Origin: Blastocatellia bacterium
Lineage (GTDB): Bacteria > Acidobacteriota > Blastocatellia > UBA7656
Length of the DNA: 64,000 nucleotides
Assembly (NCBI GenBank): GCA_963765495.1
Contig: CAVXWP010000003.1
Location: 224,001-288,000, forward strand
Direction: 5' to 3'
The notes under the pieces are model-generated. The model saw only the letters and a program-made list of their open reading frames with translations, had not been told where the DNA came from and made no database searches. Below are positions 2,186 through 50,843 of this stretch, one piece after another; the stretch's first letter is position 1; every line of letters starts with the position of its first letter. A program made the translations under genes and the position numbers.

Positions 2186-2200
2186 TCTACGGTACGCGAG

Positions 2201-4771: not shown

Positions 4772-4797
4772 ACCGGGCCAAAAGGAGTTAAACGCTT

Positions 4798-6066
4798 ATG
4801 ACAACCGTCATCGTTCCGAGAGTCCATTTTTTCGAAAAGCAATTCTTGCGCGTAGGCGAGTTCAAAGATGAACAGACATACCACATTGCGGCCCGGCGGC
4901 GGCACAACATAACCGAGCATTTATGGGGAATTGTTCGGGGTCTTGAAATCGCGCAGGACGAAGACCTCGCGCTGATAGTGAGACCCGGCATGGCCATTGA
5001 CGGATACGGAAGAGAATTGCTGCTGGCCGAAAAAAAATCGCTTGACGCGAAAGCCTTCGACACGCTTGGGACCGATCAACTCGACGCCTGGCTTGTCTAT
5101 GACCGGCGCGACGGAGAGACCGCGCCCGAAGGCTACTCGGGGTGCGATTCGGATAGCTCTCGAAATGCCTATCGGTCCGAAGAGACCCCGCTGGTTCTGC
5201 TTGAGCGGCCTATCTCTCGCAGTGTGGATGCGCGGCGGCCTCCCGGCGTGTCGAAGGATGTTTTTGACGCGAATGTGCCTCTGGTGTCGGATGATCCTAA
5301 GGACACCTGGCGGGTCTATCTGGGCCGCATAAAACGGCTCGCGCAGGATCAGTTTCAAATAGACCTTTCCGAACGCACATACGCCGGGCTGGTGGGCGAA
5401 GTCATAGACCACCCGGCAAACGCCGCGCGCATGGAGATCGGCAAAGAGCCGAGCGTGACCGACAGACGCGAGTTTGGAGGGCTGACTTACACTTACACAA
5501 AAAACATAGAGGGCGAGCCGACACAGTCGCGGCGTTTTGCCGTCTTCATCCCGGAAGATGTGGATTCGATAAACGACACAGGAGAAATAGTCCTGTGGCC
5601 GCGCCTTGAAATTCTGCAAGACGGAATCCTTCGCCTGCGCGGCAGCACCGTCATAAACGGCAATCTGCGGATCATCGGCGGCGCGGTGCAGTTTAGCACC
5701 CCTGCCCAGTTCGAGAACGAGCCTGTCACGGCAGACAACACGCCGCTTGCCCCCGCGATCTATCGCATAATCGATGAGGGAAAAGATCAGTTGCGAATAG
5801 ACCTTGGGGCAAACAATACCCTGAACCGCGAATTCGTAATCGGCTTTTCAAACGAGAGCGGCGAATTTACTACCTGCCTGAAACTGGAATTAAAGGAAGA
5901 GGAAGGCGCGCCTAAACCGAGAGTCAAAGTCACGATCAACGGGGACTTGATGTTAAACGGAGACCTGATCGGAACTGATCTCGTTCCGCGCACCTTGAAT
6001 GAAGAGGTCATTAACGCCATCAAGGCGAGCTTTCAGGCCGGGGTCGCCGCGGGCAATAACGCATAG
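4798..6066 (+). CDS. CIS fibre-type protein, paralogue of the N-terminal ~510 aa of 2201..4771
   Basis: RBS AAGGAG. PRVHFFEKQFLRVGEFKDEQTY...WGIVRGLEI...VRPGMAIDGYGREL. Further shared blocks: YAGL.G, Q.R.DLG and NES.EF. Confidence 0.65.
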   Translation: MTTVIVPRVHFFEKQFLRVGEFKDEQTYHIAARRRHNITEHLWGIVRGLEIAQDEDLALIVRPGMAIDGYGRELLLAEKKSLDAKAFDTLGTDQLDAWLVYDRRDGETAPEGYSGCDSDSSRNAYRSEETPLVLLERPISRSVDARRPPGVSKDVFDANVPLVSDDPKDTWRVYLGRIKRLAQDQFQIDLSERTYAGLVGEVIDHPANAARMEIGKEPSVTDRREFGGLTYTYTKNIEGEPTQSRRFAVFIPEDVDSINDTGEIVLWPRLEILQDGILRLRGSTVINGNLRIIGGAVQFSTPAQFENEPVTADNTPLAPAIYRIIDEGKDQLRIDLGANNTLNREFVIGFSNESGEFTTCLKLELKEEEGAPKPRVKVTINGDLMLNGDLIGTDLVPRTLNEEVINAIKASFQAGVAAGNNA

Positions 6067-6086
6067 CAGTGAGGTGTAGATTGTAG

Positions 6087-10397: not shown

Positions 10398-10398
10398 T

Positions 10399-13300
10399 AT
10401 GGTTGCCAACAAAGATCAATCCCTTGACCTGCTCTCGGAGCGTGACCGCAGCACAGGCGTAGCGCGCTCCGGAATGGATTCAGGTGTTGAGGCCGCTCAA
10501 TCGCTATTTGCCCCCACGGCAGAACGCGAGGGACTGATGCCCCCGGCCAACGGGGCTCCATCGGCTTCGCGGGCAGCGAATCTGATGACCGCCTCGGCGG
10601 CCATGCCTGACGTAGTCGCCCGGGCTCAGATGAGCATCGCGCTCCAGCGCAATATCGGCAACGCGCGCATGAATGCGATGTTTCATTCGATTGCAGAGCC
10701 AAAGGCTCCGCCGCCTGCCCCACCGACAATCATTCCACCCGCGCCCGAACCAAACAAACCCGCGCCTTCACCCGTCGCAGCGCAGCCGGTCAGCCCCACC
10801 CGACCCGCGCCCGCACCCGCGCCTGCGCCCGTCGGTCCCGCGCCTGCCGCACAGACGCCGACTCCGTCCCCGGCTCTTCTACCCCCCGTCAACATCGCTC
10901 CTGTTCTGCCGTCGGGCAAATCACAGGAGACAGCCGCGCCAGCCGAAAAGGTCGCAACCGAAAAGGTCGCTACTGAAAAGGTCGCAACAGGGAAGGCCGC
11001 ACCCGGAGCCGTTGCGATTGGACAACCATCCGCGCCTGATTCAGAAGAATCAGCCGGGGCCGCCGCAGGCGCGCCGCCTGCAAAGAAGGACTCGACGGCG
11101 CGTGTTGCGGGGCCGGGCGCAAAGGGTGAAGCGGGCAAAGCAAAGTCTGCTTCCCCCGATGCCGAGGGCGAAGCGGACGCGAAAAAGGGTGGCGGAAAGG
11201 GCGCAGGCGCGGTCAAACTCAAGATGCCCGAACCACCCTCAGACGTTACGCCCGCCACTCGTCAGCGCATACGAAAAGTGCAGACGGCTGCCGGCAGCGC
11301 GGCTACCTCGCACGCAACACTGCCACCTGCCGGGGAGGAAGTCGCTCAGGCACGCGCTGCCGTGACAGAGCCGACAGAAGAGACTCACGCGCACGCGGAA
11401 GAAAATCTGGTAGTCGCGCTGGGGCAGAGACCGAAACCGAGCCCGAAGATTGAGAAGCTCTGCGAGAACATATACAGGGTCATCAAATCCAAGCGCCCGC
11501 CTGATGAAGACTCGCTGGTTGATGCCGATCCGGAAGAGATGGGCAAGGCCGCTGGCGGCCTCATGAAGGGAGATGTGCAGGGCGATGTGAAGAGCGTAGA
11601 TCAAAGTTATGACGCGCTCGACAAGCCGCCCTCAGGAACGCCGCAACAGGTGGGTAAGCCTCTTGAGTCTCCACCCGCCGACGTGTCCACTGCCCCCATC
11701 AATGCCACACAGGCGACGCCCGACAAAGTGCCCGCCAAGAACGTCTCGCTTGACGCCGACGCCGAGGCTACAAAGGCGCGTATGGCCGAGGCGGGAATGG
11801 AGAAGGAACCGGCAAAACTCGCGCAGACCGGGCCAGTCGCCGAAGCCCGCGAGGCGCAGGGCGAGCTTGAGCAGACCGCAAAGGAAGACCCGGCCAAAGT
11901 TCTGGCCTCACAGCAAGCATCGCTGGCCAAGGCCAACTCCGATATGGCGGGCCTCCAGCAGAAGGCCCTTAACGCGCTTTCCACTTCGCGCCACGCCACG
12001 GTGACCGGCACGACCGATCAGCAGAAAAAGATGGTCGGATCAGAAGCGCAGATGCGCACCGATGCGAGCAAACTGGCGCGTGACATCTTCACCAGCGCTC
12101 AGACCCGCGTCAATGACCTTCTGCGACCGCTGCCCCAGACCGCGATGGAGAAATGGGACAAGGGCATCGCCATAGCCAGCCACATGTTCAAAGAACATCT
12201 GAAGCAGGTCGCCGACTGGATTAAAGAAAGGCACTCCGGCGTAGGCGGCACCCTGCTCAGCATAGGCGACTATTTCACCGGCCTGCCCGCCTGGGTTACC
12301 AGACACTATGATCAGGCCGAGCAGAAATTCGGCGATGATGTTTGCAATCTGGCGCGAGAGATCTCTACCGAAGTCAACGGCGTCATCATGGCTTGCGAAG
12401 CCATCATCGCGGACGCGAGGACACAGATTGCCGGTATATTCTCTCGCCTGCCCGACAGCCTTCAAGGGTGGGCCGCCACCGAGCAGGCAAAACTCGGTGC
12501 GCAACTCGACTCGCTCGAAAAGCACGCGCATCAGGTCCGCGACAACTTCGACCGCGATCTTGTCAAACGCGCCTCGCAATCCGTACAGGAAGTCCGCGAG
12601 CAGATAGGCGAGTTGCGGCAAAAAGCCAAAGGGCTGATCGGCAGGGTCGTAGATGCGATTGGCCGTTTCCTCGACGACCCCGTCAAGTTCATCATCGAAG
12701 CCCTGCTCGATCTGCTCAGCATCCCGCGCGCGGCTTTCTGGGCGGTCGTAGCAAAGATAAAGAAGGTCATCGGAGAGATAGCCGATGATCCGATGAAATT
12801 TGCAAACAACCTCATGGACGCGGTGGGCAAGGGGTTCAGCCAGTTCTTCGACAACATTCTCGATCACCTGCTGCACGGCTTTGTGGAGTGGTTGACTGGG
12901 GGGCTCGCCTCGGCGGGCGTCGAGCTTCCAAAGGATTTTTCGCTCAAGAGCGTAATCACCTTCTTCCTGCAATTGATGGGAATCACCTGGCCGCGCATCC
13001 GCAAGCTTCTGGCCAAGCATATCGGAGAGGAAAACGTCGCGCTGCTTGAGAAGGCGTACTCCATAGTCGCCAACCTGATAGCGATGGGGCCTGAGGGCAT
13101 CTTCGAGATGATAAAGGAGAAGCTCAACCCGCAGGAGATTCTGGATCAGATCATCAAGGCGGGCGTGGATTATCTGATAAAGGCTGTGGTCAAGGCCGTG
13201 AGCGCCCGCATAATCCTGCTCTTCAATCCGGTAGGCGCTATCCTTCAGGCGCTCGAAGCGATCTATCGCGTGCTCAAGTGGATATTCACAAACGCGGCGC

Positions 13301-14790
13301 GAATATTCCGGCTGATCGAAACCATTGTAAACGGGATTGCAGACATCCTCGCGGGCAACATAGGCGCTATGGCAAACGCGGTCGAAAAGGCGCTGGCAGG
13401 TCTGATTGCGCCCGTGATCGATTTTCTTGCCGACTACCTCGGATTCGGCGACCTGCCCGACAAGATACGAGACACGATCATGGGATTCCAGGCGTGGATC
13501 GAAGGGATACTCGATCAGGTGATAGGCTGGCTGGTCGAAAAGGGCAAGGCGCTACTGGCCGCCGTCGGGCTGGGCGGAGAAAGCGATGAGGACAAGCAGG
13601 GGGAATCGCCAAGCGCAAAGGTCGGCGAAAGGGTGCCGTTTACAGCAGACGGTGAAGGCCACAACTTGTGGATAGATGTCGAGGGCAATGATGCCATAGT
13701 GATGGTCGGCAGCAACGGCCCCTTGAGCGTAGGAAAGCGCCTCGCGATGTGGTCCAAGAAGACAGATGATCTCCCGAAGTCTGCTCAAGCGGGTGAGGAG
13801 AGTCCGCAGGCTAAGGCAAAGCGGTTAATCGGCGAGGCTGAGCCTCTGGCTTCCGTAACCGACAAGACTGCCGAGGACCTGGTCCGAGCCTCACAGAAAT
13901 CTGCCGGAGACGAGAAGACGTCACCGCCAAACGCCGGAGAGCAAGCCGAACTCTCCAAGGAAGAACATGCACTGGCTGACAAGCTTAGACAGTTATTCGA
14001 GGTTTTCGGTGAAGAGTGGGAACCTCTGGGCGAACGCTTCAAAAAAGAGTTTCAAAAGATGCACGAGCTTGCGTCTGAGTATAGTCTGGGTAAGCTTGAG
14101 GAAGCGGACCCTGCCTTGCGGAAGTCACAGACCTGGCAGCCCGTTAGAGCATGGCTACTTGCCAAGGGGCTGATCTTTACAGAACCGATGACACGGACCA
14201 CAAAATTTGTAAAAGAGGTAACGCAACCTAAAGCCGAGTCCGCCGCCGATTCGGCGATCAAGGATGCCGCCAATAAGTACGGATTTTCAGTAAAGGATGT
14301 GCCGCCTGCCGCGCGTAACAATATCGTGGATAACAGCCGGTCTGAGGTCAACGCCGGCAGCTCGCCATTCGATCTGGCAAAGGGGATTCTCCAGGAATTC
14401 GGCTTCTCTGAGCAAATCAGCCCGGTGCTGACTCTCAAGAACGCTTACTTGAATAGCTCTGCGCTTGCAAACGAACTGGGATTTGGAGAGATACAGTTGC
14501 ACCACTTGATAACAAACCAGATGGTAGCGGCGTTAGCGATTACGCAAGGTCAGATTCCCGGACAACAGCTTCGCGACAATACGAAGTACCAGTACAATTC
14601 AAGTCCGGGAGGCCATATCGGTTATGAACGCTGGCACAGACAATATGACTCGTATATGGTAGGCTTCATAACGCGATTCCCGTCCGGGACCTTGACCGTG
14701 GATAGGCTTATTTTGGAGATTCATAATTATTATCAAACTGATCACGGCGAAAACGTAACAAAGCGGATACCGGGCGTGAACATACTCTAA
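10399..14790 (+). CDS. eCIS cargo / polymorphic toxin: LQR.IGN leader motif, Pro/Ala-rich linker, long helical core, C-terminal His-rich nuclease-like tip
   Basis: ALQRNIGNARM motif typical of eCIS DUF4157-type cargo. Helical core FFLQLMGITWPRIR...LFNPVGAILQALEAIY. Tip QLHHLITNQ...GHIGYERWHRQYD. Lies directly after the ATPase. Confidence 0.75.
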   Translation: MVANKDQSLDLLSERDRSTGVARSGMDSGVEAAQSLFAPTAEREGLMPPANGAPSASRAANLMTASAAMPDVVARAQMSIALQRNIGNARMNAMFHSIAEPKAPPPAPPTIIPPAPEPNKPAPSPVAAQPVSPTRPAPAPAPAPVGPAPAAQTPTPSPALLPPVNIAPVLPSGKSQETAAPAEKVATEKVATEKVATGKAAPGAVAIGQPSAPDSEESAGAAAGAPPAKKDSTARVAGPGAKGEAGKAKSASPDAEGEADAKKGGGKGAGAVKLKMPEPPSDVTPATRQRIRKVQTAAGSAATSHATLPPAGEEVAQARAAVTEPTEETHAHAEENLVVALGQRPKPSPKIEKLCENIYRVIKSKRPPDEDSLVDADPEEMGKAAGGLMKGDVQGDVKSVDQSYDALDKPPSGTPQQVGKPLESPPADVSTAPINATQATPDKVPAKNVSLDADAEATKARMAEAGMEKEPAKLAQTGPVAEAREAQGELEQTAKEDPAKVLASQQASLAKANSDMAGLQQKALNALSTSRHATVTGTTDQQKKMVGSEAQMRTDASKLARDIFTSAQTRVNDLLRPLPQTAMEKWDKGIAIASHMFKEHLKQVADWIKERHSGVGGTLLSIGDYFTGLPAWVTRHYDQAEQKFGDDVCNLAREISTEVNGVIMACEAIIADARTQIAGIFSRLPDSLQGWAATEQAKLGAQLDSLEKHAHQVRDNFDRDLVKRASQSVQEVREQIGELRQKAKGLIGRVVDAIGRFLDDPVKFIIEALLDLLSIPRAAFWAVVAKIKKVIGEIADDPMKFANNLMDAVGKGFSQFFDNILDHLLHGFVEWLTGGLASAGVELPKDFSLKSVITFFLQLMGITWPRIRKLLAKHIGEENVALLEKAYSIVANLIAMGPEGIFEMIKEKLNPQEILDQIIKAGVDYLIKAVVKAVSARIILLFNPVGAILQALEAIYRVLKWIFTNAARIFRLIETIVNGIADILAGNIGAMANAVEKALAGLIAPVIDFLADYLGFGDLPDKIRDTIMGFQAWIEGILDQVIGWLVEKGKALLAAVGLGGESDEDKQGESPSAKVGERVPFTADGEGHNLWIDVEGNDAIVMVGSNGPLSVGKRLAMWSKKTDDLPKSAQAGEESPQAKAKRLIGEAEPLASVTDKTAEDLVRASQKSAGDEKTSPPNAGEQAELSKEEHALADKLRQLFEVFGEEWEPLGERFKKEFQKMHELASEYSLGKLEEADPALRKSQTWQPVRAWLLAKGLIFTEPMTRTTKFVKEVTQPKAESAADSAIKDAANKYGFSVKDVPPAARNNIVDNSRSEVNAGSSPFDLAKGILQEFGFSEQISPVLTLKNAYLNSSALANELGFGEIQLHHLITNQMVAALAITQGQIPGQQLRDNTKYQYNSSPGGHIGYERWHRQYDSYMVGFITRFPSGTLTVDRLILEIHNYYQTDHGENVTKRIPGVNIL
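10945..10989 (+). repeat. 3 x 15-bp tandem repeat GAAAAGGTCGC(A/T)AC(C/T/A) encoding EKVAT
   Basis: Read directly: gaaaaggtcgcaacc gaaaaggtcgctact gaaaaggtcgcaaca. Confidence 0.9.
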
Positions 14791-14805
14791 TGAAAGAAGG
14801 GAGTT

Positions 14806-15405
14806 ATGAAATTCTGGATACTCGAAGAACGAGACCGATTCATTCGGGAAGGTGATGACAGTTGTTACTATAGCATTATTGAACCGTTGAACCTCGCAGA
14901 TTGTCCAATAATCTGCCCCGTGTGCCAGGCCGTTTGCTGTCCACGCTATTGGCTACCGCCTCGAAGAATCGAATTCTCAAAGTCTGGGTGCGGCGATCTG
15001 ATTCTTGGAGTCGCCTTTGAGCTTGTAGTCTCGGAAGATTTTCGCGAGGTATACAAGACAAAGGGGTTGACCGGCATCTCGGATTTCGGTTCTGTGGAAG
15101 TGGCTGAAATCAGCCGCCCCGCCTACCTTGCAGCGCGGCCTAACGTCACATTTGCTCATCTGGATGAGGCAGCATCAGGAGTGATCTGGGAACAGGAGCC
15201 TGTCTGCAATCATTGCCGTCTTGGTGTCATTTCCAGGTTGGACAGCGTTGTTCTTGACGAGAGCACCTGGGATGGCAGCGACCTCTTTATGGCTACTGGC
15301 CTCTATGGCATCAAGCTAGCGACCGATAGATTTGTCGAGGTCGTGAAAGACGCAAATCTCACGAATTTTGTATTCGTTCCCGCATCTGAATATTCAATAC
15401 CATGA
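14806..15405 (+). CDS. Putative cognate immunity protein (double-CxxC, Imm11/DUF1629/SitI-like)
   Basis: 15 bp after the toxin stop. Motifs CPVCQ and CNHCR, WLPP, LVVSEDF...GLTG, TWDGSDLF and TDRFVEVV...LTNF resemble myxobacterial toxin immunity proteins. Confidence 0.65.
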   Translation: MKFWILEERDRFIREGDDSCYYSIIEPLNLADCPIICPVCQAVCCPRYWLPPRRIEFSKSGCGDLILGVAFELVVSEDFREVYKTKGLTGISDFGSVEVAEISRPAYLAARPNVTFAHLDEAASGVIWEQEPVCNHCRLGVISRLDSVVLDESTWDGSDLFMATGLYGIKLATDRFVEVVKDANLTNFVFVPASEYSIP

Positions 15406-15707
15406 AGAGCTATCTATCAGTGACTTTGTGGACCGACGCGGCCCGGACCCGGTATTTTCTGATTCCTGACGACAAAGAGTTTCCGTCGGGTGACTTCACC
15501 CTGCGCACGCTCACTGGTCGAAAGATGAAAATCGAAGAGGGCAGTCTCGCCGAGTTCGAACTGAGCGAAGAGGAGGCAAAAGAATGGCTCCGAGGCGAAT
15601 TCGGCAAGATGCTCGACGGAGCGCGGGCAGCCGTAGACCGATTTGTCAAAAAGCTGAGCGAGGGACCGTCCGACTCCGCCGAAGAACCGAAAACATCAGA
15701 TGACTGA
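15402..15707 (+). CDS. Hypothetical protein, last gene of the CIS operon
   Basis: ATGA overlap with the upstream gene; 101 aa with natural composition; no recognised motif. Confidence 0.65.
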   Translation: MKSYLSVTLWTDAARTRYFLIPDDKEFPSGDFTLRTLTGRKMKIEEGSLAEFELSEEEAKEWLRGEFGKMLDGARAAVDRFVKKLSEGPSDSAEEPKTSDD

Positions 15708-17075: not shown

Positions 17076-17763
17076 GACATACTTCTCCTGTGCATATTCA
17101 GCGTCGTTTACGCCTGATGGCCTAAATCCAGGCAAATATCATCCCACTTGTTGAAAGTAATTCTTTTGACCTGTTTCATCTCTTTCACAGCCGATCTCAG
17201 GGCGGAATATTTGTGGTGAGGTCTATTTTACGCCGGGGTTACTTGCTTCCTGACACAATGCTGCTTCTGTTATTTCAGGTCTTGTTTTACTTGAGGTGTA
17301 GTCATAATGCCATTCACTTTAGTGGAGTTGGTCTAACACTGTGTGCCAATCAGCATTCAGATGGCCCGCATAATACATGGACGCAAAAGGATAATAAAAC
17401 ATTTCAAAATGATGCCGACTTATTCAGATCTGACGGTTGAAGAGATGATAGCGCTTTCGCAGGTCATAGTGTTATTGCGATTGCATTTAGCCGAAGGGAG
17501 GACCCGAATACATTTCCTTGTGGTTGTCCGAATCGCCCGCAACTACCAATGATGCGCTTCGCACACGGCGGGCGATGACTGTTATCGCGCAAACGAGGGT
17601 CTCGGGCAGAAACAGACCCTGTCTCCCTGATGGCGGACCAGGCAGTTCTTTCTACACGGCATCGAAGTCTATTATTGTGCCATTCACATCAGGTTTCCTG
17701 CCAAAGGTCATAAGTTATTTCTTCAGAAAAAGCGTCGAGACAAATCGCGTCCCGTGTGGCGAT

Positions 17764-19386
17764 TTAGCCGGGAGAATCATTTGTCGTAGAGAAGTCCGAT
17801 TTAATGCTGCGAAACCTGTTTTCGATCATTTGAGAATCGGGTGGATTGCCTTGACGATTAATAATGTCGAGCGCCTGCTGTCCGGTCGAACTCCAGTGCC
17901 TGGCTTCGTGCGGATAGCGTCTTGAGCTATCGTAAGCCTTGTCCGCCTCTGAATAATTACCGAGTAAGACGTGCGCTTCCGCCCTGGTCGCCTCAGACCA
18001 GTAACCGGGTTTCTCCAGACCCTCGCATATCCGTAGAACGTCGTTCGCCAGAGCACTATAGTCGCTTCCTCCAAGCGCAAAGCTCATATAGGCCGTGTTT
18101 ATTCCATTATAAAATTTCTGATCAGTATCGGACCTTGCTGTTGCAGATTCGTAAGCCGTCTTATACAGATCATAAACCTTCCATCCGAGCGAGACAGCGC
18201 TGCGACTCTTAAGCCACTGTCGCTTGAATCGCCCGGCAAGAATCCCCTGGGTTTCAGGATCATTTTGCACTTGAGGATCTAATTGCTTCAATCGAGCCAC
18301 CGCCCCGGCGATGTCGCCTGCGCCGGATAATGCGATTGCCAGTTGCTGGACCGCCTGCGCATCCGAAGCAAAGGGGCGCGATCCGTCATCGGGCATCTGA
18401 AACTCTACATATCGGGTAAGCAAAGCGACCGCCTGCTCGTATCGTTCGTTGTCAAGCAACGCGAGTCCCAGCACCTTATCCACAGGCGGCATGTGTAACT
18501 GGCTGCTCAGGCGCTCCTTTGCCAGATCAACAAGGATATCAACGTCCCCCAATTCTGCTGCTGCCTGCACGCGTTTCATTTCCCTGATCGCTTCATCGCT
18601 TTCCCCGTAAATCAGTCTTCGTTCGGATGCCGTGAGGCTGGGCCGAAGAAGGCGGTTCTTAAGAAGCTGGTAAGGCAAATCTCCGACAATCGCAGGCTTG
18701 ACCACTTCGGTATGATTACCCGGGGCAAGCTCGTGCTCGTCGAATGGAAAGGGATCGAGTGAGCTTTCCTGCGGCACAAACTCGTCTTTCATACCCGCAA
18801 CCAGGGTGAGTCGAAACCGGGCAATTCGGTTCGGGTCGGATCGCTTATCGTCTATCATTTGAGTCCATCCGCTCCGAAGTTTTTGGATAAAAGGCCCGTA
18901 GTCGTCCATATCCGCTATCTGGTTCTTCAGAAAACCGCCCCATCTCGCCTTCTTCAATCCGCCGCTTGGAGTTGCATAAAGAATTATTTCGGTGATACGG
19001 TCCAGGTAATCACGCGCATTATTTGCGATCTCTTCAAGTATAAAGGCTTGAATAACCAGCCCGCCCATACTGTGACCCACAAGAATAATTCTCTTATAGT
19101 CTCTGGCGTAGGTGTTTAGAAGAGTTCGCAGTCCCTTGCCAATAGTCTCTATGTTGGGATCGTTTTCCCAGAAATATTTCGTTATCGCGTATCTCAATTT
19201 AAGCTCGGATGGATAGCCCCAGAAGTAAAAGTCATAATTACCAAGCTTACCGTCGTGCGCTAACAGGGCATCGAAGCCCTTCCATGTGTCAACGGCCCCT
19301 CCGGTAAAGCCGTGGACAAAGATTACCACGGCTTCCTTCTCGGCAGAGTCGTGGTTTGTGACAAGGTGTGGGTTATCTATAGACAT
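17764..19386 (-). CDS. Alpha/beta-hydrolase (PGAP1/DUF676-like) fused to TPR-S / MAP3K TRAF-binding-like helical domain
   Basis: VIFVHGFTG, nucleophile GHSMGG, ATPSGG, DEFVP, NHTEVVKP. C-terminal DPETQGILAGRFKRQW...YNGINTAY...YWSEATRAEAHVLLG. RBS AAGGAG. Confidence 0.8.
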   Translation of the reverse strand: MSIDNPHLVTNHDSAEKEAVVIFVHGFTGGAVDTWKGFDALLAHDGKLGNYDFYFWGYPSELKLRYAITKYFWENDPNIETIGKGLRTLLNTYARDYKRIILVGHSMGGLVIQAFILEEIANNARDYLDRITEIILYATPSGGLKKARWGGFLKNQIADMDDYGPFIQKLRSGWTQMIDDKRSDPNRIARFRLTLVAGMKDEFVPQESSLDPFPFDEHELAPGNHTEVVKPAIVGDLPYQLLKNRLLRPSLTASERRLIYGESDEAIREMKRVQAAAELGDVDILVDLAKERLSSQLHMPPVDKVLGLALLDNERYEQAVALLTRYVEFQMPDDGSRPFASDAQAVQQLAIALSGAGDIAGAVARLKQLDPQVQNDPETQGILAGRFKRQWLKSRSAVSLGWKVYDLYKTAYESATARSDTDQKFYNGINTAYMSFALGGSDYSALANDVLRICEGLEKPGYWSEATRAEAHVLLGNYSEADKAYDSSRRYPHEARHWSSTGQQALDIINRQGNPPDSQMIENRFRSIKSDFSTTNDSPG

Positions 19387-19523
19387 AATATAATTCTCCT
19401 TTCAATCGGCCTGCTGACAGGCGGGCAAAGACGTTGCCTCTCTTATATAAACTCAATTCTCAGCTTCAACCATTTTGCTTTAACCATTTTGCCCGACCAC
19501 AAACACCTGTTGAGCAGGGGATG

Positions 19524-22505
19524 TTACGGTTTCAGCCGTCGCGGCTTTGACCTCTTTCCCAGATATCTGATCTGGTCTTCAATTATTAGTTGCATCCCGT
19601 CATTGATTTTAGCTGCGATTTCGAGGGCTTTTTTATAAGCGGCCAACGCCTCTTGCGTTTTATTCAGGCTGGCCAGAGCGTAGCCGATTGAGTAGTTCGT
19701 CCGCACCTGTTTCTTGAGATTACCCCCCTCCTCGTAAATAGCTAGTGCTGCACGAAGGGATGTCAGAGATTCATTCTTAAGATTCAGATAAAACTCGCTC
19801 TCACCAATATTCAGTAGCAACTCGGCTTGCTTGTCACGATCCCCCAGACCCTCGTGGATCGCAAGCGCTTGTTTGTAATATCCCAGCGCCTTCCGCGAGT
19901 ATTCTGCTTTTATAAGAGGGTTCTCCGGTTTCTCGTTTGGAAATACCCTTCCCAGTTCAAGGTAATATTTCCCAATCGCTTCAAGAGCCTGCGCTTCCTC
20001 TTTGCGTTTGCCCGTATCTCTATAAAGTTTAACTGCATGTTCAAACCGCTCGGTAGCCTTCGCATCGTTTTTCTGCGCTTGATAGCTCTTTCCAATCTGG
20101 ATCAACATCGCTACAAATGCATCCCGCTGTTTCTGAACCTGTGTTTGATCCTGAGCCTGTTGCTCGATCAGAGCTTCAAACAGGGGTATTGTTTGCTCGT
20201 AGTAGATTGTAGGATCGCTCTTAATCTTTTCCCCCGTACAATCGAGAGCCTCAAGACTTTCCTTCTTTGCTTTTGGTTCGCCCTCATTGCTAACTCTCAA
20301 CTCTCTCCCAATTAGATCACCGAGCTTAGATAGAATTGAAACTTGCCCTTCGAGGTTTCCGCTATTTCTGTAATCTCCCTGCGCCTCACAAAAATATTCC
20401 AGCGCTTTCTTGGTGCGCTCTTTAACAGGCTCCTTTTCTCCCTTTATAGGGTCCTTTTCTACTATTGGGTCTTCTCCCCATCCATCGTCATCTGAATCAT
20501 CGGGACCAAAAAGTTGCCGATTATCCTTGCTGAAGTAGACGCCAAGGTCGGCCAATGCGGCAGCCGAGCCGTTAAAAACACGTCGCCCCCGGTAATTGTC
20601 AATCGCTTTTTGGTAGTACTCCAAGCCTGATTTTTGTTGAGAATCTGCATCGCGTATCTCAATATCCTCCTTTGATGTATTTTTTTGATTGAGCAGCATC
20701 CTGCCGAGTTCGGTGTAGGTAAAAGCGACGCCGTCTTCATCGCCAACTCTTTCGTATCCTTTTATCGCTTTAAGAAAAGCTTGTTGCGCTTTTTCTATAT
20801 TGAATTCCTCAAGATATTTTGTGGCTTCGCGGTGCTGCCTGTCCGCCTCCCGTGTTCCGTAAGCATATAAAACAGCCAGGATTGCAAGCACCATAACTAT
20901 TGATAATGCCAGTAAAAATATGCGCAGCCGCTTGAGTTCGCGCTGGCGGGCGGCAGCCTTTTCTTCACGCTCCCTGTGCTCTCGCTCCACATCGTCTTTG
21001 CGCTTCCGTTCGCTTTTATCAAGGAACTCCATAGCGAGTGCGAATTCCGGGTGATACCGCCTCGCCCAGGCTTCATTGGGCTGGCGCTTCTTTCGCCAAT
21101 CCAGGGCGAGTTGTAGCGCCGGATCAACCCAGAGCGAGACCGCATATTTCTGATGACGAAGGGCATCACCGACCAGTCTCAAATACAGTTCTCTGGATTC
21201 GGCTTCGGCATCCACCCAGTTGCGCAGCGTCTCCCACTGGCGGATAAGGCTTTCGTGAGAGATGTCAACGAGCGAATCGCCCTTGAGCGGGTCTTCCGAT
21301 AACGTGAGAAAATCTCGATTATTGCAGCGAAAACGCTCGATAATCTCCAGAATCTTTTCGCGGCTTGCCCCGGTGAGAGCTTGCAGTTCGCTCAGGTGAG
21401 CGGGTCTGCGGACGCGGCGTCCGCTGGCATCGGTTTCGGTCAGGCCCTGAAACATGCGCTCTGTTGTAATCAAATCCTCCTTGCTCATGTCCTTCAATGC
21501 CTTATCGGCATCTTGAGAGAGAGCATCTTTGATCGTGCCAATCGCGTTATAATCGTTGAGGTCTATTGGCCCATTTTTCTCTTCTCGCCATTTTTCCCAT
21601 GTGCGCATCAAGGCGTGCTGCATGACAGGCAATTGATCCGACTCCTCGCCTACATCGTTGAGCACGCGATCCAGAAGACTGGACGCGATCTCTTCTCCAT
21701 ACAACCGGACAGGGCTTTCAATAACCTCTTGACGTTGCTGGCGCGTAAGCCTCGGCACAAGGTACTGACTGCGATTCATAGCTTCCGGCAACCCGTAGAA
21801 GGCATCGCAGTCCCCGAGAAAATCGGAACGCATCGTCATTACGACGTAAACCGGCAAAGCCTTCTGCTCAGTCAGGCCCAGCATGATCGAAACAAAATCG
21901 GCGGCCTCGTCGCGGCGCTTCTCTTTTTCATCGTCTCCAATGTTCGGCGCGTCTTTTCCAGCGTACAAACCGAACCGAAAAATCTCTTCGAATTGGTCAA
22001 TGAGCAAGAGGAAATTGGTATCTGATTGTCCCAGCCGTGGCGTCAAGTATTCAATGACAGCTTTCACGCCGGAAAGCCGTATTGCCTCAGACATCTCCCG
22101 TATGCGTTCATTTGTTGTCACTTCTGAGAAGGCTTGCAGCAGGGCCGCTACCAGATTTTGCAACGGCGAGTCGCCGGGCTTCATTATTGCTATGCCCCAC
22201 TTATCACGCCGCTCAACCAGAAACCCGGCCTTCAGCTTGGGGATCAGTCCTGCCCGAATCAGCGATGACTTACCCGATCCCGAACTCCCAACGACTGCCA
22301 GGAAGCGCGTTCGATGCAGTTGCTGTAACAGCTCGACAACCTGCCCGCGCCGCCCAAAAAATAGAAGCGCTTCCGTGCTCTGGAATGGTCGCAAACCGAC
22401 AAAAGGGTTTGCCGACAATCCAGTAGCATCAGAACGCTGTGCGCTCTCGCTATCGAGCGAAGTTATCTCGCTCGTGGCGTTCAAAGATATGGCCTTCATT
22501 TCCAT
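19524..22505 (-). CDS. nSTAND1-type NTPase with single TM helix and C-terminal TPRs
   Basis: NPFVGLRPF, LFFGR, Walker A GSSGSGKSSLIRAGL, Walker B LLIDQFEEIF, TMRSDF, LPVMQHAL, DISHESLIRQWETLRNWV. TM helix IFLLALSIVMVLAILAVLYAY. TPR-like ALGYYKQALAI repeats. Confidence 0.88.
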   Translation of the reverse strand: MEMKAISLNATSEITSLDSESAQRSDATGLSANPFVGLRPFQSTEALLFFGRRGQVVELLQQLHRTRFLAVVGSSGSGKSSLIRAGLIPKLKAGFLVERRDKWGIAIMKPGDSPLQNLVAALLQAFSEVTTNERIREMSEAIRLSGVKAVIEYLTPRLGQSDTNFLLLIDQFEEIFRFGLYAGKDAPNIGDDEKEKRRDEAADFVSIMLGLTEQKALPVYVVMTMRSDFLGDCDAFYGLPEAMNRSQYLVPRLTRQQRQEVIESPVRLYGEEIASSLLDRVLNDVGEESDQLPVMQHALMRTWEKWREEKNGPIDLNDYNAIGTIKDALSQDADKALKDMSKEDLITTERMFQGLTETDASGRRVRRPAHLSELQALTGASREKILEIIERFRCNNRDFLTLSEDPLKGDSLVDISHESLIRQWETLRNWVDAEAESRELYLRLVGDALRHQKYAVSLWVDPALQLALDWRKKRQPNEAWARRYHPEFALAMEFLDKSERKRKDDVEREHREREEKAAARQRELKRLRIFLLALSIVMVLAILAVLYAYGTREADRQHREATKYLEEFNIEKAQQAFLKAIKGYERVGDEDGVAFTYTELGRMLLNQKNTSKEDIEIRDADSQQKSGLEYYQKAIDNYRGRRVFNGSAAALADLGVYFSKDNRQLFGPDDSDDDGWGEDPIVEKDPIKGEKEPVKERTKKALEYFCEAQGDYRNSGNLEGQVSILSKLGDLIGRELRVSNEGEPKAKKESLEALDCTGEKIKSDPTIYYEQTIPLFEALIEQQAQDQTQVQKQRDAFVAMLIQIGKSYQAQKNDAKATERFEHAVKLYRDTGKRKEEAQALEAIGKYYLELGRVFPNEKPENPLIKAEYSRKALGYYKQALAIHEGLGDRDKQAELLLNIGESEFYLNLKNESLTSLRAALAIYEEGGNLKKQVRTNYSIGYALASLNKTQEALAAYKKALEIAAKINDGMQLIIEDQIRYLGKRSKPRRLKP

Positions 22506-22508
22506 TAG

Positions 22509-24011
22509 CTACCTTCCTACAAATGTATCCAGAAGATTCGCCAATATTTCTGGTTTATCGAAGAGAAATACAGGAACAGAGCCGGGAAAGACTCCCAGAC
22601 TAATCTGTCGAGCCTCTCCCTGACCGTCGATGGGTGCCAGATAAATCCCGCAGAACTTCAAGGAGCATCTGTCAGCTATGGCTATTTGCAGCGCAGATAT
22701 AAGTCGTTCGCGGACCCAATCGCCCGCGACCTGACCAAAAATAATGATCAGTATGCTCACCCGTTTTAGCATTTCTTGAAAAAGCGCGATGTTCTTCTGC
22801 GGGTCATCCTCTTCGGGGCTGATGAAAGGCATCACTTTTCGTTTGAGGAGAAATTTGCCCAGATCGAGGGCATAGAGTTGATCTTTCAGATGAGTGTCCA
22901 CCAAAGCGGCGGAAGGGGGAGTCTCTGTTCTTTTCTTTTCTGCCTGTATGCGGTTGACTTCTGCCAGAATTTCGCGCGCAATCGAGCCGGAAGACTCTCG
23001 AATAAATCTGTAAGTGGATTGATCCCTGTCTCCGTTTTCCAATTGAGCCAGAAAATTCCTTTGGCCTTCATCTTCAATCGTCTGAATATCGAGCGTCTTG
23101 GGTATCCAGATCAATTGCGACCTGGCATGCTGTTTCCCTATTTCAACCTGCTTCTGGTAATAAGTTTTATCCGGCTCGTCTTGCACTTCCGTACCCGATG
23201 CGCCGTCAAGCAGATGGACGGACAAACCCGCCCTGCTGATTTCATCTATAACCACTTTTTCGTGCTGTAGGGCTGGATAAGGCGGAGGCAAATCGGTAAC
23301 GACCTGTAAGCCGTTTTGACGCAATTCCTCAACTACGCGTCTCCTGGTGCCGCGCAAATCCCCTTCTGCATGCGCCAGAAATATCGAAAACGGATTATCT
23401 TCGGGCGTTATCCTATTCGGATCAGGCACAGGCGGCTTCGGTTCAACAATCTTTTTTAGAGCCTCCAAGGTCGCCTGAATCTCGTCAACCAGTTGTCGAA
23501 GCTGGCGCTCAAAAAGCTCGCCGTCCTGATGCGAAGGGAGCCCGACTTGATCCTTTCTCTGAGCATCATGAAATGGCAGCCCGCTAGTTCCAGCCATCTC
23601 GACAGGCCAATCATCAGGTAGAATGTTATAAAGTAGGATGTTGAACAATCGCGAGCGGGCATCGATCTTCAAGCCAAAAGCATCGGCCCGCGCCTTGTTG
23701 TGGAAACTCTTCAGCTCTTTTAGACAATAGCTTTCCGGGTTAAAGTACCCTCTGGAAGTAAGAGCCAGGAAAAGACCCGACTTATTAATGCCTGTTTCAA
23801 TAGCTTCGTCGAAAAAAGTGCTTCCGCCTATCTCCCGTGTATCACGCCAAATCTTGACGACACCTACTCTGCCGAAGCGCTTCGAAAGTTCGATTTCGAG
23901 GTATTCATGAAATAGAGTGATCCAGCCTTTGTCCTTACCCGGAGGCTTTTGATCATCTACGCGGGCATAGCTGATAAATATGTCATACTCGAACGAGGAT
24001 AAATATGCCAT
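22509..24011 (-). CDS. TIR-domain protein (TIR_2) followed by two further TIR/DUF4062-like Rossmannoid domains
   Basis: YDIFISYA...KIWRD...SRGYF..SYCLKEL with conserved Glu. Second unit SIFLAHA...LRQNG...LSVHLLD. Third unit ALVDTHLKD...ILIIIFGQVAGDWVRERL. Ends 3 bp from the STAND gene start. Confidence 0.82.
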   Translation of the reverse strand: MAYLSSFEYDIFISYARVDDQKPPGKDKGWITLFHEYLEIELSKRFGRVGVVKIWRDTREIGGSTFFDEAIETGINKSGLFLALTSRGYFNPESYCLKELKSFHNKARADAFGLKIDARSRLFNILLYNILPDDWPVEMAGTSGLPFHDAQRKDQVGLPSHQDGELFERQLRQLVDEIQATLEALKKIVEPKPPVPDPNRITPEDNPFSIFLAHAEGDLRGTRRRVVEELRQNGLQVVTDLPPPYPALQHEKVVIDEISRAGLSVHLLDGASGTEVQDEPDKTYYQKQVEIGKQHARSQLIWIPKTLDIQTIEDEGQRNFLAQLENGDRDQSTYRFIRESSGSIAREILAEVNRIQAEKKRTETPPSAALVDTHLKDQLYALDLGKFLLKRKVMPFISPEEDDPQKNIALFQEMLKRVSILIIIFGQVAGDWVRERLISALQIAIADRCSLKFCGIYLAPIDGQGEARQISLGVFPGSVPVFLFDKPEILANLLDTFVGR

Positions 24012-44564: not shown

Positions 44565-44566
44565 AT

Positions 44567-46342: not shown

Positions 46343-46369
46343 CCTGCCTTTGCTCCTGCGGGGTCTGTC

Positions 46370-50798: not shown

Positions 50799-50843
50799 TA
50801 TTTCTCCTGCAAACAGACCGCCGGGCGATCTGCGAGTTCGGTT

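What the first reader, a model, noticed from the sequence alone, without database searches (positions are those of the whole stretch)
17764..24011. Candidate undescribed conflict/defence system: triple-TIR + membrane nSTAND1-TPR + lipase-TPR-S effector
Seen: three co-oriented genes in a visibly AT-richer block bounded by ~600-bp non-coding gaps; TIR and STAND genes are 3 bp apart. Established: bacterial TIR domains cleave NAD+ or make signal nucleotides (Thoeris); STAND NTPases with TPRs act as pattern sensors (Avs); TPR-S/TRAF-binding-like domains are proposed nucleotide sensors; alpha/beta-hydrolases serve as membrane-damaging effectors. Inference: a sensor (STAND-TPR), signal generator (TIR) and signal-gated lipase effector, i.e. 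a split NLR/Thoeris-like circuit that I do not recognise as a named system.
Basis: partly seen in the sequence, partly recalled or inferred. Interest (0 to 1): 0.8.

Follow-up and report, generated by a model that had tools for sequence, protein, structure and literature searches.

The report
TIR–membrane STAND pair with sensor-lipase
Two of the three genes form a widespread, tightly coupled pair (an NAD-cleaving-type TIR enzyme and a membrane-anchored NLR-like switch whose sensor probably faces outward), and the third, a lipase-like enzyme with a domain linked to TIR signalling, is an optional add-on, not a fixed part.

Summary
The three genes and their domains are real. The claimed "three-gene system" is not a conserved unit.

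**Core pair.** The TIR gene and the nSTAND1 gene form a conserved pair.
- The nSTAND1 gene lies directly downstream in 76 of 76 testable homologous loci.
- Their coding regions overlap in 56 of 70 cleanly called pairs.
- Four fused single-protein forms exist.
- 66 of 68 STAND partners carry one membrane helix after the NTPase, followed by swappable domains (WD40, TPR, peptidoglycan peptidase, pYEATS).

**Hydrolase–TPR-S gene.** It moves independently.
- No locus of the other 80 has it as a stand-alone gene; five carry the hydrolase-like domain inside a caspase fusion.
- Its 76%-identical homologue lies on a different contig from that genome's TIR gene.

**Class-level link.** TPR-S proteins as a class recur beside the pair.
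- They occur in 16 of 80 loci, with at least 10 gains or losses on the TIR tree and several different enzyme heads.
- The same genome holds a TIR gene next to an NTPase–TPR-S–patatin fusion.

**Reading.** A split, membrane NLR-like receptor with a TIR output, here probably feeding a signal-gated lipase. It is a new variant of computationally described kinds. Earlier scan notes describe what reads as the same module on other DNA.

The parts
22509..24011 (-). Gene 1: 500-aa three-domain TIR protein (P0001)
   Evidence: ORF and translation. It belongs to a conserved ~500-aa family: 218 clusters, and 1603 representatives at E<=1e-30.
23442..24011 (-). Domain 1 (residues 1-190): TIR domain with the catalytic-type Glu99 (YCLKEL)
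   Evidence: Pfam TIR_2, E 4.5e-9. The family profile matches solved TIR domains, with the WCxxEL-type motif aligned: Cat1 at E 4.9e-6, then L6, RPP1 and ROQ1. Glu99 is invariant. NCBIfam FxsC_Nterm gives E 5.4e-7, below the cut-off.
22926..23399 (-). Domain 2 (residues 205-362): beta-alpha-beta domain, weakly DUF4062/TIR-like
   Evidence: DUF4062 at E 1.3e-3 and 3.8e-4, below the cut-off. Only 2 of 26 family members hit DUF4062 and 2 of 26 hit TIR_2. Secondary-structure order comes from the AlphaFold model. Invariant residues are PPP242-244, H250 and Q288; E290 is nearly invariant. The fold identity was not tested structurally.
22512..22922 (-). Domain 3 (residues 364-500): beta-alpha-beta domain with no conserved Glu at the TIR catalytic position
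   Evidence: AlphaFold secondary structure. Invariant residues are H374, D377, D402, P404, W432 and R436. No Pfam or PDB sequence match. hhalign against domain 1 is not significant.
19524..22505 (-). Gene 2: 993-aa membrane-anchored nSTAND1 NTPase (P0002)
   Evidence: ORF. Its start is 3 nt after the TIR stop, and a GGAAGG motif lies inside the end of the TIR gene.
21150..22406 (-). nSTAND1 NTPase module (residues 34-452) with Walker A GSGK79S and Walker B D170-E174
   Evidence: Pfam PF20703, E 2.5e-91. The Walker residues are invariant in 26 sequences.
20865..20921 (-). Single transmembrane helix (residues 529-547)
   Evidence: Kyte-Doolittle mean 2.99. The equivalent helix is present in 66 of 68 complete STAND partners, and Lys/Arg is richer on the N-terminal side.
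19527..20858 (-). C-terminal TPR-rich region (residues 550-993), predicted to lie outside the cytoplasm
   Evidence: TPR_12, E 2e-18, and other TPR families. The topology is inferred from the positive-inside pattern. The equivalent region varies among relatives.
19387..19523 (.). 137-nt spacer between STAND and hydrolase genes, with a tandem 14-nt repeat at 19463-19490 and an AGGAG-type ribosome site
   Evidence: Sequence. Repeat family D19. No terminator-like or promoter-like site on the minus strand in this spacer.
17764..19386 (-). Gene 3: 540-aa alpha/beta-hydrolase + TPR-S protein (P0003)
   Evidence: ORF. The architecture is conserved in 189 clusters.
18577..19341 (-). Alpha/beta-hydrolase domain (residues 16-270) with Ser106-Asp201-His225
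   Evidence: Pfam Abhydrolase_6, DUF900, PGAP1, DUF676 and LCAT. PADLOC LmuA hydrolase model, E 1.8e-8. The triad and the HG oxyanion motif are invariant in 18 homologues.
17905..18510 (-). TPR-S sensor-type domain (residues 293-494)
   Evidence: Pfam PF20308, E 2.9e-16. Local profile, E 4e-59. Signature residues E378, K388, Y408, Y426, N430, W463 and E470 are shared with 12-15 of 15 TPR-S domains from other effector types.
17736..17754 (-). Terminator-like hairpin just after the hydrolase stop codon
   Evidence: Consensus scan only; site counts in the region are not above shuffles.

Best explanation
The locus holds a two-gene core plus an optional output gene.

**Core.** The core is a split NLR-like receptor.
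- The nSTAND1 NTPase sits in the inner membrane. Its ATPase faces the cytoplasm and its TPR array probably faces the periplasm.
- The three-domain TIR protein, translated from the overlapping upstream gene, is its detached N-terminal output.

**Inferred sequence of events.**
1. An envelope-side or invader cue is bound by the outer repeats.
2. The NTPase switches and multimerises.
3. The TIR domain (Glu99) is brought together and cleaves NAD+.
4. Its ADP-ribose-derived product binds the TPR-S domain of the neighbouring alpha/beta-hydrolase.
5. That releases a Ser106-Asp201-His225 esterase or lipase, which damages the cell's own membrane or lipids and aborts the infection.

**Shown here:**
- the gene pairing;
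- the fused forms;
- the conserved membrane helix;
- the intact catalytic motifs;
- the repeated association of TPR-S proteins with the pair.

**Inferred:**
- the membrane topology;
- what is sensed;
- whether the TIR makes a signal or only depletes NAD+;
- the coupling to this particular hydrolase;
- the hydrolase's substrate.
For: **Pair.**
- The nSTAND1 gene is directly downstream of the TIR gene in 76 of 80 loci. The other 4 loci end at the contig edge.
- In 70 cleanly called pairs, the coding regions overlap in 56: 46 by 4 nt, 6 by 1 nt, 4 by more.
- 4 of 4 paralogous pairs in the same class have the same order.
- 4 fused TIR-nSTAND1-TPR/WD40 proteins of 1332-1773 aa exist.

**Receptor-like build.**
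- One TM helix is present in 66 of 68 STAND partners, with Lys/Arg richer on the NTPase side.
- C-terminal domains among 67 partners: WD40 in 26, TPR in 4, pYEATS in 3, M15/VanY peptidoglycan peptidase in 2, Lcl_C in 2, one (L077) with only the tail of nSTAND1 itself, and none recognised in 29.

**Catalytic competence.** Glu99, Lys79, D170-E174 and Ser106/Asp201/His225 are invariant.

**Link to TPR-S.**
- TPR-S proteins lie within 10 kb in 16 of 80 loci, and within 1 kb in 11. Heads include caspase + hydrolase-like domain, CHAT, patatin, TIR, or none.
- SLATT is present in 9 of 80 loci; either TPR-S or SLATT in 19 of 80.
- The label needs at least 10 changes on the TIR tree.
- Density of hit ORFs is about 14 per Mb in the loci, against about 1 per Mb in G000 with the same profile.
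- In five genomes chosen because adjacency had been seen, the TPR-S matches beside the pair, or on its contig, numbered 1 of 1, 2 of 2, 2 of 3, 1 of 3 and 4 of 5.
- Paralogous pairs in G043 and G047 face a RyR-TPR-S-cyclase gene.
- In G000 itself, a TIR gene overlaps a gene for ParA-like P-loop + nSTAND1 C-part + TPR-S + patatin in one protein.

**Literature (passages read).**
- The type VIII Thoeris effector carries a TPR domain and responds to canonical cADPR; SLATT effectors do too.
- TIR + NTPase systems with receptor-like type-II membrane forms are predicted in bioRxiv 10.64898/2026.10.19.760177.

**Local layout.** No terminator-like site lies between STAND and hydrolase, and one lies just after the hydrolase. 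All three genes share a low-GC block.
Against: **The hydrolase-TPR-S family is not tied to the pair.**
- No locus of the other 80 has it as a stand-alone gene.
- The nearest usable TIR relatives lack any TPR-S neighbour.
- Its 76%-identical homologue in G452 has no TIR or STAND gene in the roughly 5 kb and 12 kb of flank read, although that genome has a TIR orthologue on another contig.
- G126 and G071 carry intact homologues but only a weak generic TIR match (G126) or none (G071) with the family profile.
- In G022, G126 and G452 its constant neighbour is a stand-alone TPR-S protein. That partner is missing in the window.

**Most pair loci have no such effector.** 61 of 80 have no TPR-S or SLATT gene within 10 kb. 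The TIR may therefore be the terminal NAD+-depleting effector, as the preprint's own model proposes.

**Other weaknesses.**
- The 137-nt spacer with a tandem repeat allows separate regulation of the hydrolase.
- Topology rests on a hydropathy and charge count only.
- That ThsI's TPR is the Pfam TPR-S family was not tested here.
- PADLOC gave no system-level match, so there is no experimental anchor.
- Kin are not independent, so the enrichment figures are rough.
Confidence: 0.55

Rival explanations
1. There are two separate systems side by side. The TIR-nSTAND1 pair is complete on its own, with the TIR as the killing enzyme that drains NAD+. The hydrolase-TPR-S gene is an independent single-gene (or elsewhere two-gene) conflict module that landed in the same low-GC insertion spot.
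For: - 61 of 80 pair loci have neither TPR-S nor SLATT within 10 kb.
- Close hydrolase homologues live without a TIR or STAND gene in the flanks read, and instead with a stand-alone TPR-S gene.
- G452 holds both modules on different contigs.
- The published model for TIR + NTPase systems ends in NAD+ destruction.
- The spacer with a repeat upstream of the hydrolase start allows its own regulation.
Against: - TPR-S genes are about 15-fold denser around the pair than in G000 at large.
- In several genomes they are the only, or nearly the only, TPR-S genes.
- Association was gained or lost at least 10 times.
- An NTPase-TPR-S-patatin fusion lies beside a TIR gene in the same genome.
- No other defence-type genes were seen in the flanks that would mark a general defence island. 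The neighbours are a sigma-54 activator, LPS genes and sugar genes.
Confidence: 0.3
2. This is not anti-phage immunity but an envelope-surveillance or kin-level cell-death circuit. The outward-facing STAND senses cell-wall or community cues and triggers TIR-dependent death or dormancy, as proposed for 'apoptosis-like' systems of multicellular bacteria. The hydrolase remodels lipids during this response.
For: - Partner sensor domains include peptidoglycan peptidase (M15/VanY) and other likely extracytoplasmic modules.
- The helix with positive-inside charge pattern is conserved.
- The preprint reports TIR-NTPase systems enriched in multicellular bacteria and proposes sensing of peptidoglycan breach.
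- The window is chromosomal, with no phage or plasmid genes beside the block.
Against: - Distribution is patchy: the TIR family is present in 15 of 61 relatives, with full-length high-scoring orthologues in only four of them plus one split copy.
- The genomic context changes from locus to locus.
- Effector heads are swappable.
- The block is low in GC.
- These are the usual marks of mobile defence genes. Breach sensing and defence are also not exclusive.
Confidence: 0.1

Closest known systems
[quoted passage not shown]
   Same: - An upstream gene for an active TIR, often followed by extra inactive TIR-like domains.
- A downstream NTPase gene with variable sensor domains, including pYEATS.
- A type-II single-pass membrane subtype with outside sensors.
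- nSTAND1 named as one of the grafted STAND modules.
- P0001 domain 1 weakly matches the FxsC TIR model.
- The paralogous G000 C10 locus fits this family directly, with its ParA-like P-loop.
   Different: - P0002 has no ParA domain. Its own nSTAND1 P-loop starts at residue 34.
- The preprint mentions loss of ParA only as direct TIR-STAND fusions, not as a separate-gene pair.
- Its text never mentions TPR-S or patatin: 0 occurrences.
- Its supplements could not be seen.
nSTAND1-centred counter-invader systems (Kaur, Iyer, Burroughs, Aravind 2021, eLife, PMC8195603; passages read)
   Same: - The central NTPase family is PF20703.
- The logic of effector + NTPase + variable sensor is shared.
- TIR, caspase and alpha/beta-hydrolase are listed among effector types.
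   Different: - Those systems are described with adaptor (Death-like/EAD) domains that link effectors to the NTPase. None was found here.
- The membrane helix and the three-domain TIR partner are not described in the passages I read.
Thoeris types VIII and VII (ThsB TIR + ThsI 'CMP hydrolase + TPR', or SLATT ThsH; signal canonical cADPR; bioRxiv 10.64898/2025.12.03.692087, section 5 and passages read)
   Same: - A TIR gene next to an effector that joins an enzyme head to a TPR-type sensing domain.
- SLATT genes also recur next to the pair.
- The paper lists phospholipases and hydrolases among 29 putative effector types.
   Different: - Thoeris TIRs are described as sensing the phage themselves. 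Here a dedicated STAND NTPase is always present.
- The authors discarded TIRs found in Avs (STAND) proteins.
- The effector head here is an alpha/beta-hydrolase.
- The effector is present in only a minority of loci.
- The ThsB model matches only at E 1.6e-3.
- Table S1, which may list this configuration, is a supplement I could not open.
Avs/AVAST and other bacterial NLR-like STAND defence proteins
   Same: - A STAND NTPase with a repeat sensor and an effector such as TIR.
- Activation by multimerisation is the established model for the class (recalled).
   Different: - Those are single cytoplasmic polypeptides that bind phage proteins.
- This one is split into two genes, is membrane-anchored, and probably senses outside the cytoplasm.
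- No Avs model of PADLOC matched.

Membership tests
nSTAND1 NTPase (Pfam PF20703) | Match to the family model above its curated cut-off | tested here: met
   E 2.5e-91, 307.6 bits against a cut-off of 27.1, covering model positions 1-372 of 379.
nSTAND1 NTPase (Pfam PF20703) | Intact Walker A and Walker B motifs | tested here: met
   G73-S81 with K79, and D170-E174, are invariant in 26 aligned partners.
TIR domain (NAD+-cleaving type) | TIR fold match plus the conserved catalytic Glu in the (W/Y)CxxEL motif | tested here: met
   TIR_2, E 4.5e-9. The family profile aligns YCLKEL with WCWDEL of Cat1 and WCLMEL of L6. E99 is invariant. Enzyme activity was not tested.
'Triple TIR' architecture | Domains 2 and 3 share the TIR fold | tested here: inconclusive
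   The model shows three beta-alpha-beta domains. hhalign E-values are 0.33-0.5. DUF4062 and TIR_2 each hit 2 of 26 members, below the cut-off. The whole-model Foldseek run was dominated by multi-domain Rossmann-like hits, with one TIR hit, 7s2z_B. Per-domain structure searches could not be run.
Thoeris | A TIR (ThsB) gene conserved next to one signal-activated effector gene as the core operon | tested here: not met
   The constant partner of this TIR is a STAND NTPase (76 of 76). A TPR-S or SLATT effector is within 10 kb in only 19 of 80 loci. The stand-alone hydrolase-TPR-S gene is found beside the pair only in the window.
Thoeris | The TIR makes an ADPR-derived signal that activates the effector | not testable with these tools
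   This needs LC-MS of infected or induced lysates and an effector activation assay.
TIR-ParA systems (bioRxiv 10.64898/2026.10.19.760177) | A ParA/MinD-type NTPase encoded downstream of the TIR gene | tested here: not met
   P0002 shows no ParA, CbiA or AAA_31 match. The paralogous C10 locus of the same genome does: AAA_31 at E 1.4e-9.
TIR-ParA systems (bioRxiv 10.64898/2026.10.19.760177) | An FxsC-type active TIR (TIR-FC) with an added inactive TIR domain | tested here: inconclusive
   FxsC_Nterm, E 5.4e-7, 29.7 bits against a cut-off of 130. No model for FxsC-C was at hand.
Avs/AVAST | A single polypeptide with effector, STAND and sensor, matching Avs models | tested here: not met
   The build is split over two genes with a membrane helix. 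No Avs model matched in PADLOC at E<=0.1.
TPR-S (Pfam PF20308) | Match above the curated cut-off and retention of signature residues | tested here: met
   60.4 bits against a cut-off of 27.6. E378, K388, Y408, Y426, N430, W463 and E470 are shared with 12-15 of 15 diverse TPR-S domains.
Alpha/beta-hydrolase (serine esterase/lipase type) | Nucleophile elbow GxSxG with Ser-Asp-His triad | tested here: met
   GHS106MGG, D201 and H225 are invariant in 18 homologues. The lipid substrate is inferred only from weak matches to PGAP1, LCAT and DUF676.

The most novel reading that the evidence does not exclude
The pair is an outside-in bacterial immune receptor. It would be an NLR-type switch that reads the periplasm or cell envelope through swappable outer domains. 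It would then drive a cytoplasmic TIR to make a nucleotide signal. That signal would be read by interchangeable TPR-S or SLATT effectors: lipase here, and caspase, CHAT, patatin or cyclase elsewhere. This would be a three-tier cascade joining NLR-type sensing to Thoeris-type signalling, with the sensor, the signal maker and the executioner on three separate proteins.
Probability: 0.3. Interest if true: 0.8.

Novelty: new variant of a known kind. Interest (0 to 1): 0.55.

Why it matters
Characterised bacterial NLR-like defence proteins, as I recall them, sense phage proteins inside the cell and carry their own effector. Known Thoeris TIRs are thought to sense infection by themselves.

A large family may fill the gap between the two. 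It has 1603 representatives at E<=1e-30. In it a membrane STAND with an apparently outward-facing sensor is always paired with a separate TIR enzyme, and repeatedly with TIR-signal-type effectors. That would make 'who senses, who signals, who kills' separable by simple genetics.

It would also give the TPR-S domain and the alpha/beta-hydrolase effector class a testable trigger. None of this is shown experimentally. If the hydrolase proves to be a mere neighbour, what remains is an ordinary, though uncharacterised, member of computationally described TIR-STAND systems.

Tried and rejected
1. **PADLOC scan of the three proteins.** It gave only weak single-domain hits: PDC-S66 at 7e-6, ThsB at 1.6e-3 and the LmuA hydrolase at 1.8e-8. 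No named system fits.
2. **hhalign between the three domains of P0001.** Nothing significant.
3. **Foldseek of the whole 500-aa model against the PDB.** It was dominated by multi-domain Rossmann-type enzymes at TM 0.13-0.2. It is uninformative apart from the RUN1 TIR hit.
4. **A second fold of domains 2-3 alone.** The job failed and was not counted.
5. **Profile of domains 2-3 against PDB sequences.** Nothing below E 0.47.
6. **Metagenome scan with the hydrolase alignment.** The GHSMGG-type pattern pulled in generic hydrolases. Only 1 of 80 loci (L106) covered both halves, so the reverse test at scale failed.
7. **Complex prediction for TIR + STAND.** It was unavailable. Binding was therefore not examined.
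8. **Protein Atlas.** It was unavailable.
9. **Flanking repeats that might mark a mobile element.** Only short two-copy matches, taken as chance.
10. **Promoter and terminator scan.** Site counts were not above shuffles, so it was used only descriptively.
11. **A small upstream gene as a fourth component.** Upstream genes fall into several unrelated families, and none has a match in the window.
12. **The J Bacteriol 2020 paper that introduced the TIR-linked TPR.** It is not held. I know it only through the citing passage.
13. **Literature search for a named system.** The terms 'TPR-S', 'nSTAND1', 'STAND NTPase', 'effector-associated domain' and 'type IV Thoeris' found no experimental study of this pair.

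Full report
**What is there.**
The window carries three minus-strand ORFs at 22509-24011, 19524-22505 and 17764-19386.
- Pfam assigns TIR_2 (E 4.5e-9) and a sub-threshold DUF4062 to the first ORF.
- It assigns nSTAND1 (E 2.5e-91) plus TPR repeats to the second.
- It assigns alpha/beta-hydrolase families plus TPR-S (E 2.9e-16) to the third.
- The TIR stop and the STAND start are 3 nt apart, and a GGAAGG motif lies inside the end of the TIR gene.
- A 137-nt spacer with a tandem 14-nt repeat precedes the hydrolase gene.
- A terminator-like hairpin follows the hydrolase gene, and none lies between STAND and hydrolase.
- The block is flanked by gaps of 628 and 644 nt.
- The block has 49.2% GC against a genome mean of 53.8%, in the lowest 5.9% of 3595 windows of 7.5 kb.
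- Neighbours are a sigma-54 activator on one side and an unknown 470-aa protein, a 2-hydroxyacid dehydrogenase and a cytidylyltransferase on the other.
- No tRNA gene lies in the window.

**The TIR protein.**
- It belongs to a conserved ~500-aa family: 218 clusters at 40-64% identity.
- A profile search of every representative found 9761 proteins at E<=1e-3, 4616 at 1e-10 and 1603 at 1e-30.
- The family profile matches solved TIR domains (Cat1 at E 4.9e-6, then L6, RPP1 and ROQ1). YCLKEL aligns with their WCxxEL motif, and Glu99 is invariant.
- The AlphaFold model (pLDDT 83.7) has three successive beta-alpha-beta domains.
- Domain 2 has a nearly invariant Glu290 in a YPQKQxEL stretch.
- Domain 3 has Trp432 and Arg436 invariant but no conserved Glu at the corresponding place.
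- Domains 2 and 3 could not be shown to be TIR-like by sequence.
- The per-domain structure search could not be run.
- 'Triple TIR' therefore stays a reasonable but unproven label. The October 2026 preprint states that the domain following FxsC-type TIRs is an inactive TIR.

**The pair is the unit.**
I scanned one genome per species with the family alignment. That gave 80 loci.
- A close nSTAND1 homologue (46-81% identity in the NTPase module) lies directly downstream in 76 of them.
- The other four loci stop at the contig end within about 110 nt of the TIR gene.
- In 70 cleanly called pairs the coding regions overlap in 56: 46 by 4 nt, 6 by 1 nt and 4 by more.
- A paralogous clade in the window's own class shows the same order in 4 of 4 loci.
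- Four proteins of 1332-1773 aa fuse the whole TIR protein to nSTAND1 and TPR or WD40 repeats.
- Walker A and Walker B motifs are invariant.
- The family is patchy among relatives. It is present in 15 of 61, with full-length high-scoring orthologues in only four of them plus one split copy.
- It sits in a different genomic context in almost every locus.

**A membrane receptor build.**
- One strongly hydrophobic helix follows the NTPase module in 66 of 68 complete STAND partners.
- The 15 residues before the helix usually hold 4-9 Lys/Arg, and the 15 after it usually hold 1-4.
- By the positive-inside rule this puts the NTPase in the cytoplasm and the C-terminal part outside. This is an inference from composition, not a test.
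- The C-terminal part is swappable across 67 partners:
  - WD40 propellers in 26;
  - TPR in 4, plus the window;
  - pYEATS in 3;
  - M15/VanY peptidoglycan peptidase in 2;
  - Lcl_C in 2;
  - one (L077) where my cut still held the end of nSTAND1;
  - nothing recognisable in 29.

**The hydrolase-TPR-S gene is not a fixed third member.**
- Its architecture is a family of its own, with 189 clusters.
- Ser106, Asp201 and His225 are invariant in 18 homologues.
- It is rare among relatives:
  - 4 of 53 family genomes at E<=1e-20, counting G000;
  - 4 of 401 phylum genomes at E<=1e-10, counting G000.
- No locus of the other 80 TIR loci has it as a stand-alone gene. Five Flavobacteriaceae loci have a related hydrolase-like domain inside a convergent caspase-hydrolase-TPR-S protein. 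In three of four of those that I aligned, the nucleophile Ser is Gly.
- The window's closest usable relatives on the TIR tree, L022 and L028, have no TPR-S neighbour. L046, the closest by identity, was left off the tree and has asparagine synthase downstream.
- Going the other way, by genome:
  - G452: the 76%-identical homologue has no TIR or STAND gene in the roughly 5 kb and 12 kb of flank read. That genome's TIR orthologue lies on another contig.
  - G022: the copy is broken by stop codons. No TIR or STAND gene lies within 9 kb, and no TIR-family gene was found in the 72%-complete assembly.
  - G126 and G071: both have intact copies. The family profile found only a weak generic TIR match in G126 and none in G071.
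  - G029: it has the hydrolase on a 3.1-kb contig and two TIR paralogues elsewhere.
- In G022, G126 and G452 the constant neighbour of the hydrolase gene is a stand-alone MAP3K_TRAF_bd/TPR-S gene.

**Yet TPR-S proteins as a class keep turning up beside the pair.**
- A local profile found TPR-S within 10 kb in 16 of 80 loci, and within 1 kb in 11.
- Pfam names what the profile found:
  - stand-alone TPR-S genes just upstream and co-directional (L034, L037, L041, and two in L056);
  - CHAT proteins just upstream in L068, L072 and L082, with TPR-S detected in the last two;
  - TIR-TPR-S proteins (L068, L082);
  - caspase-TPR-S proteins (L049, L052, L057, L078, L084);
  - two TPR-S proteins in L087;
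  - patatin followed by a TPR-S gene in L092.
- SLATT genes occur in 9 of 80 loci. Either kind occurs in 19 of 80.
- On a tree of 80 TIR proteins, the 17 labelled rows need at least 10 gains or losses. L046 was left out because its gene is split in two frames. The shuffled mean is 15.8, and none of 500 shuffles was as low.
- The association is therefore partly inherited but was made or lost many times.
- With the same profile and threshold, G000 has 7 hit ORFs in 7.3 Mb, against about 19 in the 1.31 Mb of loci.
- I then looked at five genomes chosen because adjacency had been seen there, which is a biased sample. The TPR-S matches lying beside the pair, or on its contig, numbered 1 of 1, 2 of 2, 2 of 3, 1 of 3 and 4 of 5.
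- Two paralogous pairs (G043, G047) face a RyR-TPR-S-cyclase gene and a ThsB-like TIR gene.
- G000 itself has a second locus (C10). There a TIR gene overlaps by 1 nt a 1464-aa gene that joins four parts in one protein: a ParA-like P-loop, the C-terminal part of nSTAND1, TPR-S and patatin.
- Of the three strong TPR-S genes of G000, two are thus tied to TIR + NTPase genes. The third pairs with a patatin gene and has no TIR gene nearby.

**What is known.**
- nSTAND1 was named in PMC8195603 as the central NTPase of predicted counter-invader systems with TIR, caspase and hydrolase effectors (passages).
- bioRxiv 10.64898/2026.10.19.760177 (sections 25-26 read) describes 'TIR-ParA apoptosis systems':
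  - an active FxsC-type TIR encoded upstream, often with an inactive TIR added;
  - a ParA NTPase, often grafted onto AP-ATPase, nSTAND1 or NACHT;
  - ligand-binding subtypes, including pYEATS;
  - receptor-like type-II membrane subtypes with peptidoglycan-related outside sensors.
  - Its model ends in NAD+ destruction, and its text has no mention of TPR-S or patatin.
- bioRxiv 10.64898/2025.12.03.692087 (section 5 and passages) validates Thoeris types V-XI.
[quoted passage not shown] Type VII uses SLATT.
  - The paper lists phospholipases and hydrolases among 29 putative effector types.
  - It removed TIRs that lie in Avs proteins.
- I did not test whether that TPR is Pfam TPR-S.
- PADLOC 2.0 gives no system match.
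- Earlier notes of this scan describe what reads as the same module on other DNA:
  - e1-2168244: a membrane STAND with a TIR partner;
  - e1-3002885: the same pair with a TPR-S-cyclase third gene;
  - e1-3922196: a fused form.
  - One further note says a lipase-CHAT-TPR-S build beside TIR genes is already in published tables (e1-1521180). These are leads that I partly re-tested here.

**Verdict.**
- The best reading is a split, membrane-anchored NLR-like receptor (TIR + nSTAND1). In this genome it has picked up an independently mobile TPR-S-gated hydrolase as a probable downstream effector.
- I put the pair as a functional unit at about 0.9.
- I put the coupling of this hydrolase to it at about 0.5.
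- The kinds are described by computation and none is tested at the bench. The particular combination is unnamed: no ParA, a separate three-domain TIR, an outward-facing sensor and a TPR-S lipase.
- I class it as a new variant of a known kind, of moderate interest.

Noticed in passing
G000:C10:141190-146939 (locus L100 5190-10939): This is a second TIR system in the same genome. A 451-aa TIR protein overlaps by 1 nt a 1464-aa protein that joins a ParA-like P-loop, the C-terminal part of nSTAND1, TPR-S and patatin. It fits the published TIR-ParA type but has a built-in TPR-S-lipase.
   Followed up: partly
window 641-15707 (+): A co-directional run of large ORFs without Pfam matches: 514, 856, 422, 625, 1463, 199 and 101 aa. 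They surround a winged-helix + AAA ATPase gene at 8088-10397. This is an unexplained operon.
   Followed up: no
window 41901-47347 (-): A TPR + CHAT (caspase-like) protein of 887 aa lies beside a Ser/Thr kinase and a 325-aa ORF. Two tandem tricorn-like proteases follow at 47478-54152. This looks like another conflict-type module.
   Followed up: no
window 19463-19490: A tandem 14-nt direct repeat, GCTT(C/T)AACCATTTT, lies in the spacer upstream of the hydrolase gene. It may be a regulator binding site.
   Followed up: no
L018 (G022), L103 (G126), L195 (G452): Homologues of the hydrolase-TPR-S gene are each followed by a stand-alone MAP3K_TRAF_bd/TPR-S gene. In G022 a TPR-S-patatin gene follows as well. 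This recurrent TPR-S pair lacks any adjacent TIR gene.
   Followed up: partly
L101 (G000:C2:470863-473473): A stand-alone TPR-S/MAP3K_TRAF_bd gene is convergent with a patatin gene, next to a type II/IV secretion ATPase. The arrangement is syntenic with G022.
   Followed up: partly
L075, L076, L087, L092, L093, L095, L096, L097 (upstream of the TIR gene): Most of these Chitinophagaceae-type loci share an unknown 450-900-aa gene 50-85 nt upstream of the TIR gene, on the same strand. The gaps are -4, 288 and 657 nt in three loci. None of the four I scanned had a Pfam match. It may be a further conserved component in that lineage.
   Followed up: partly
L186 (G043) 10730-15022 and L187 (G047) 4043-8265: RyR-TPR-S-cyclase proteins (744 and 791 aa) and ThsB-like TIR proteins (629 and 617 aa) lie divergent from a paralogous TIR-nSTAND1 pair. 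A DUF4190 membrane gene sits between them.
   Followed up: partly
L046 10001-11501: The closest relative of the window's TIR gene (68-70% identity) is split over two reading frames. This is either a frameshift or an assembly error.
   Followed up: no
L049, L078, L084 (caspase-hydrolase-TPR-S proteins): The hydrolase-like domain has Gly in place of the nucleophile Ser, while Asp and His are kept. In these fusions the caspase is probably the working effector.
   Followed up: no
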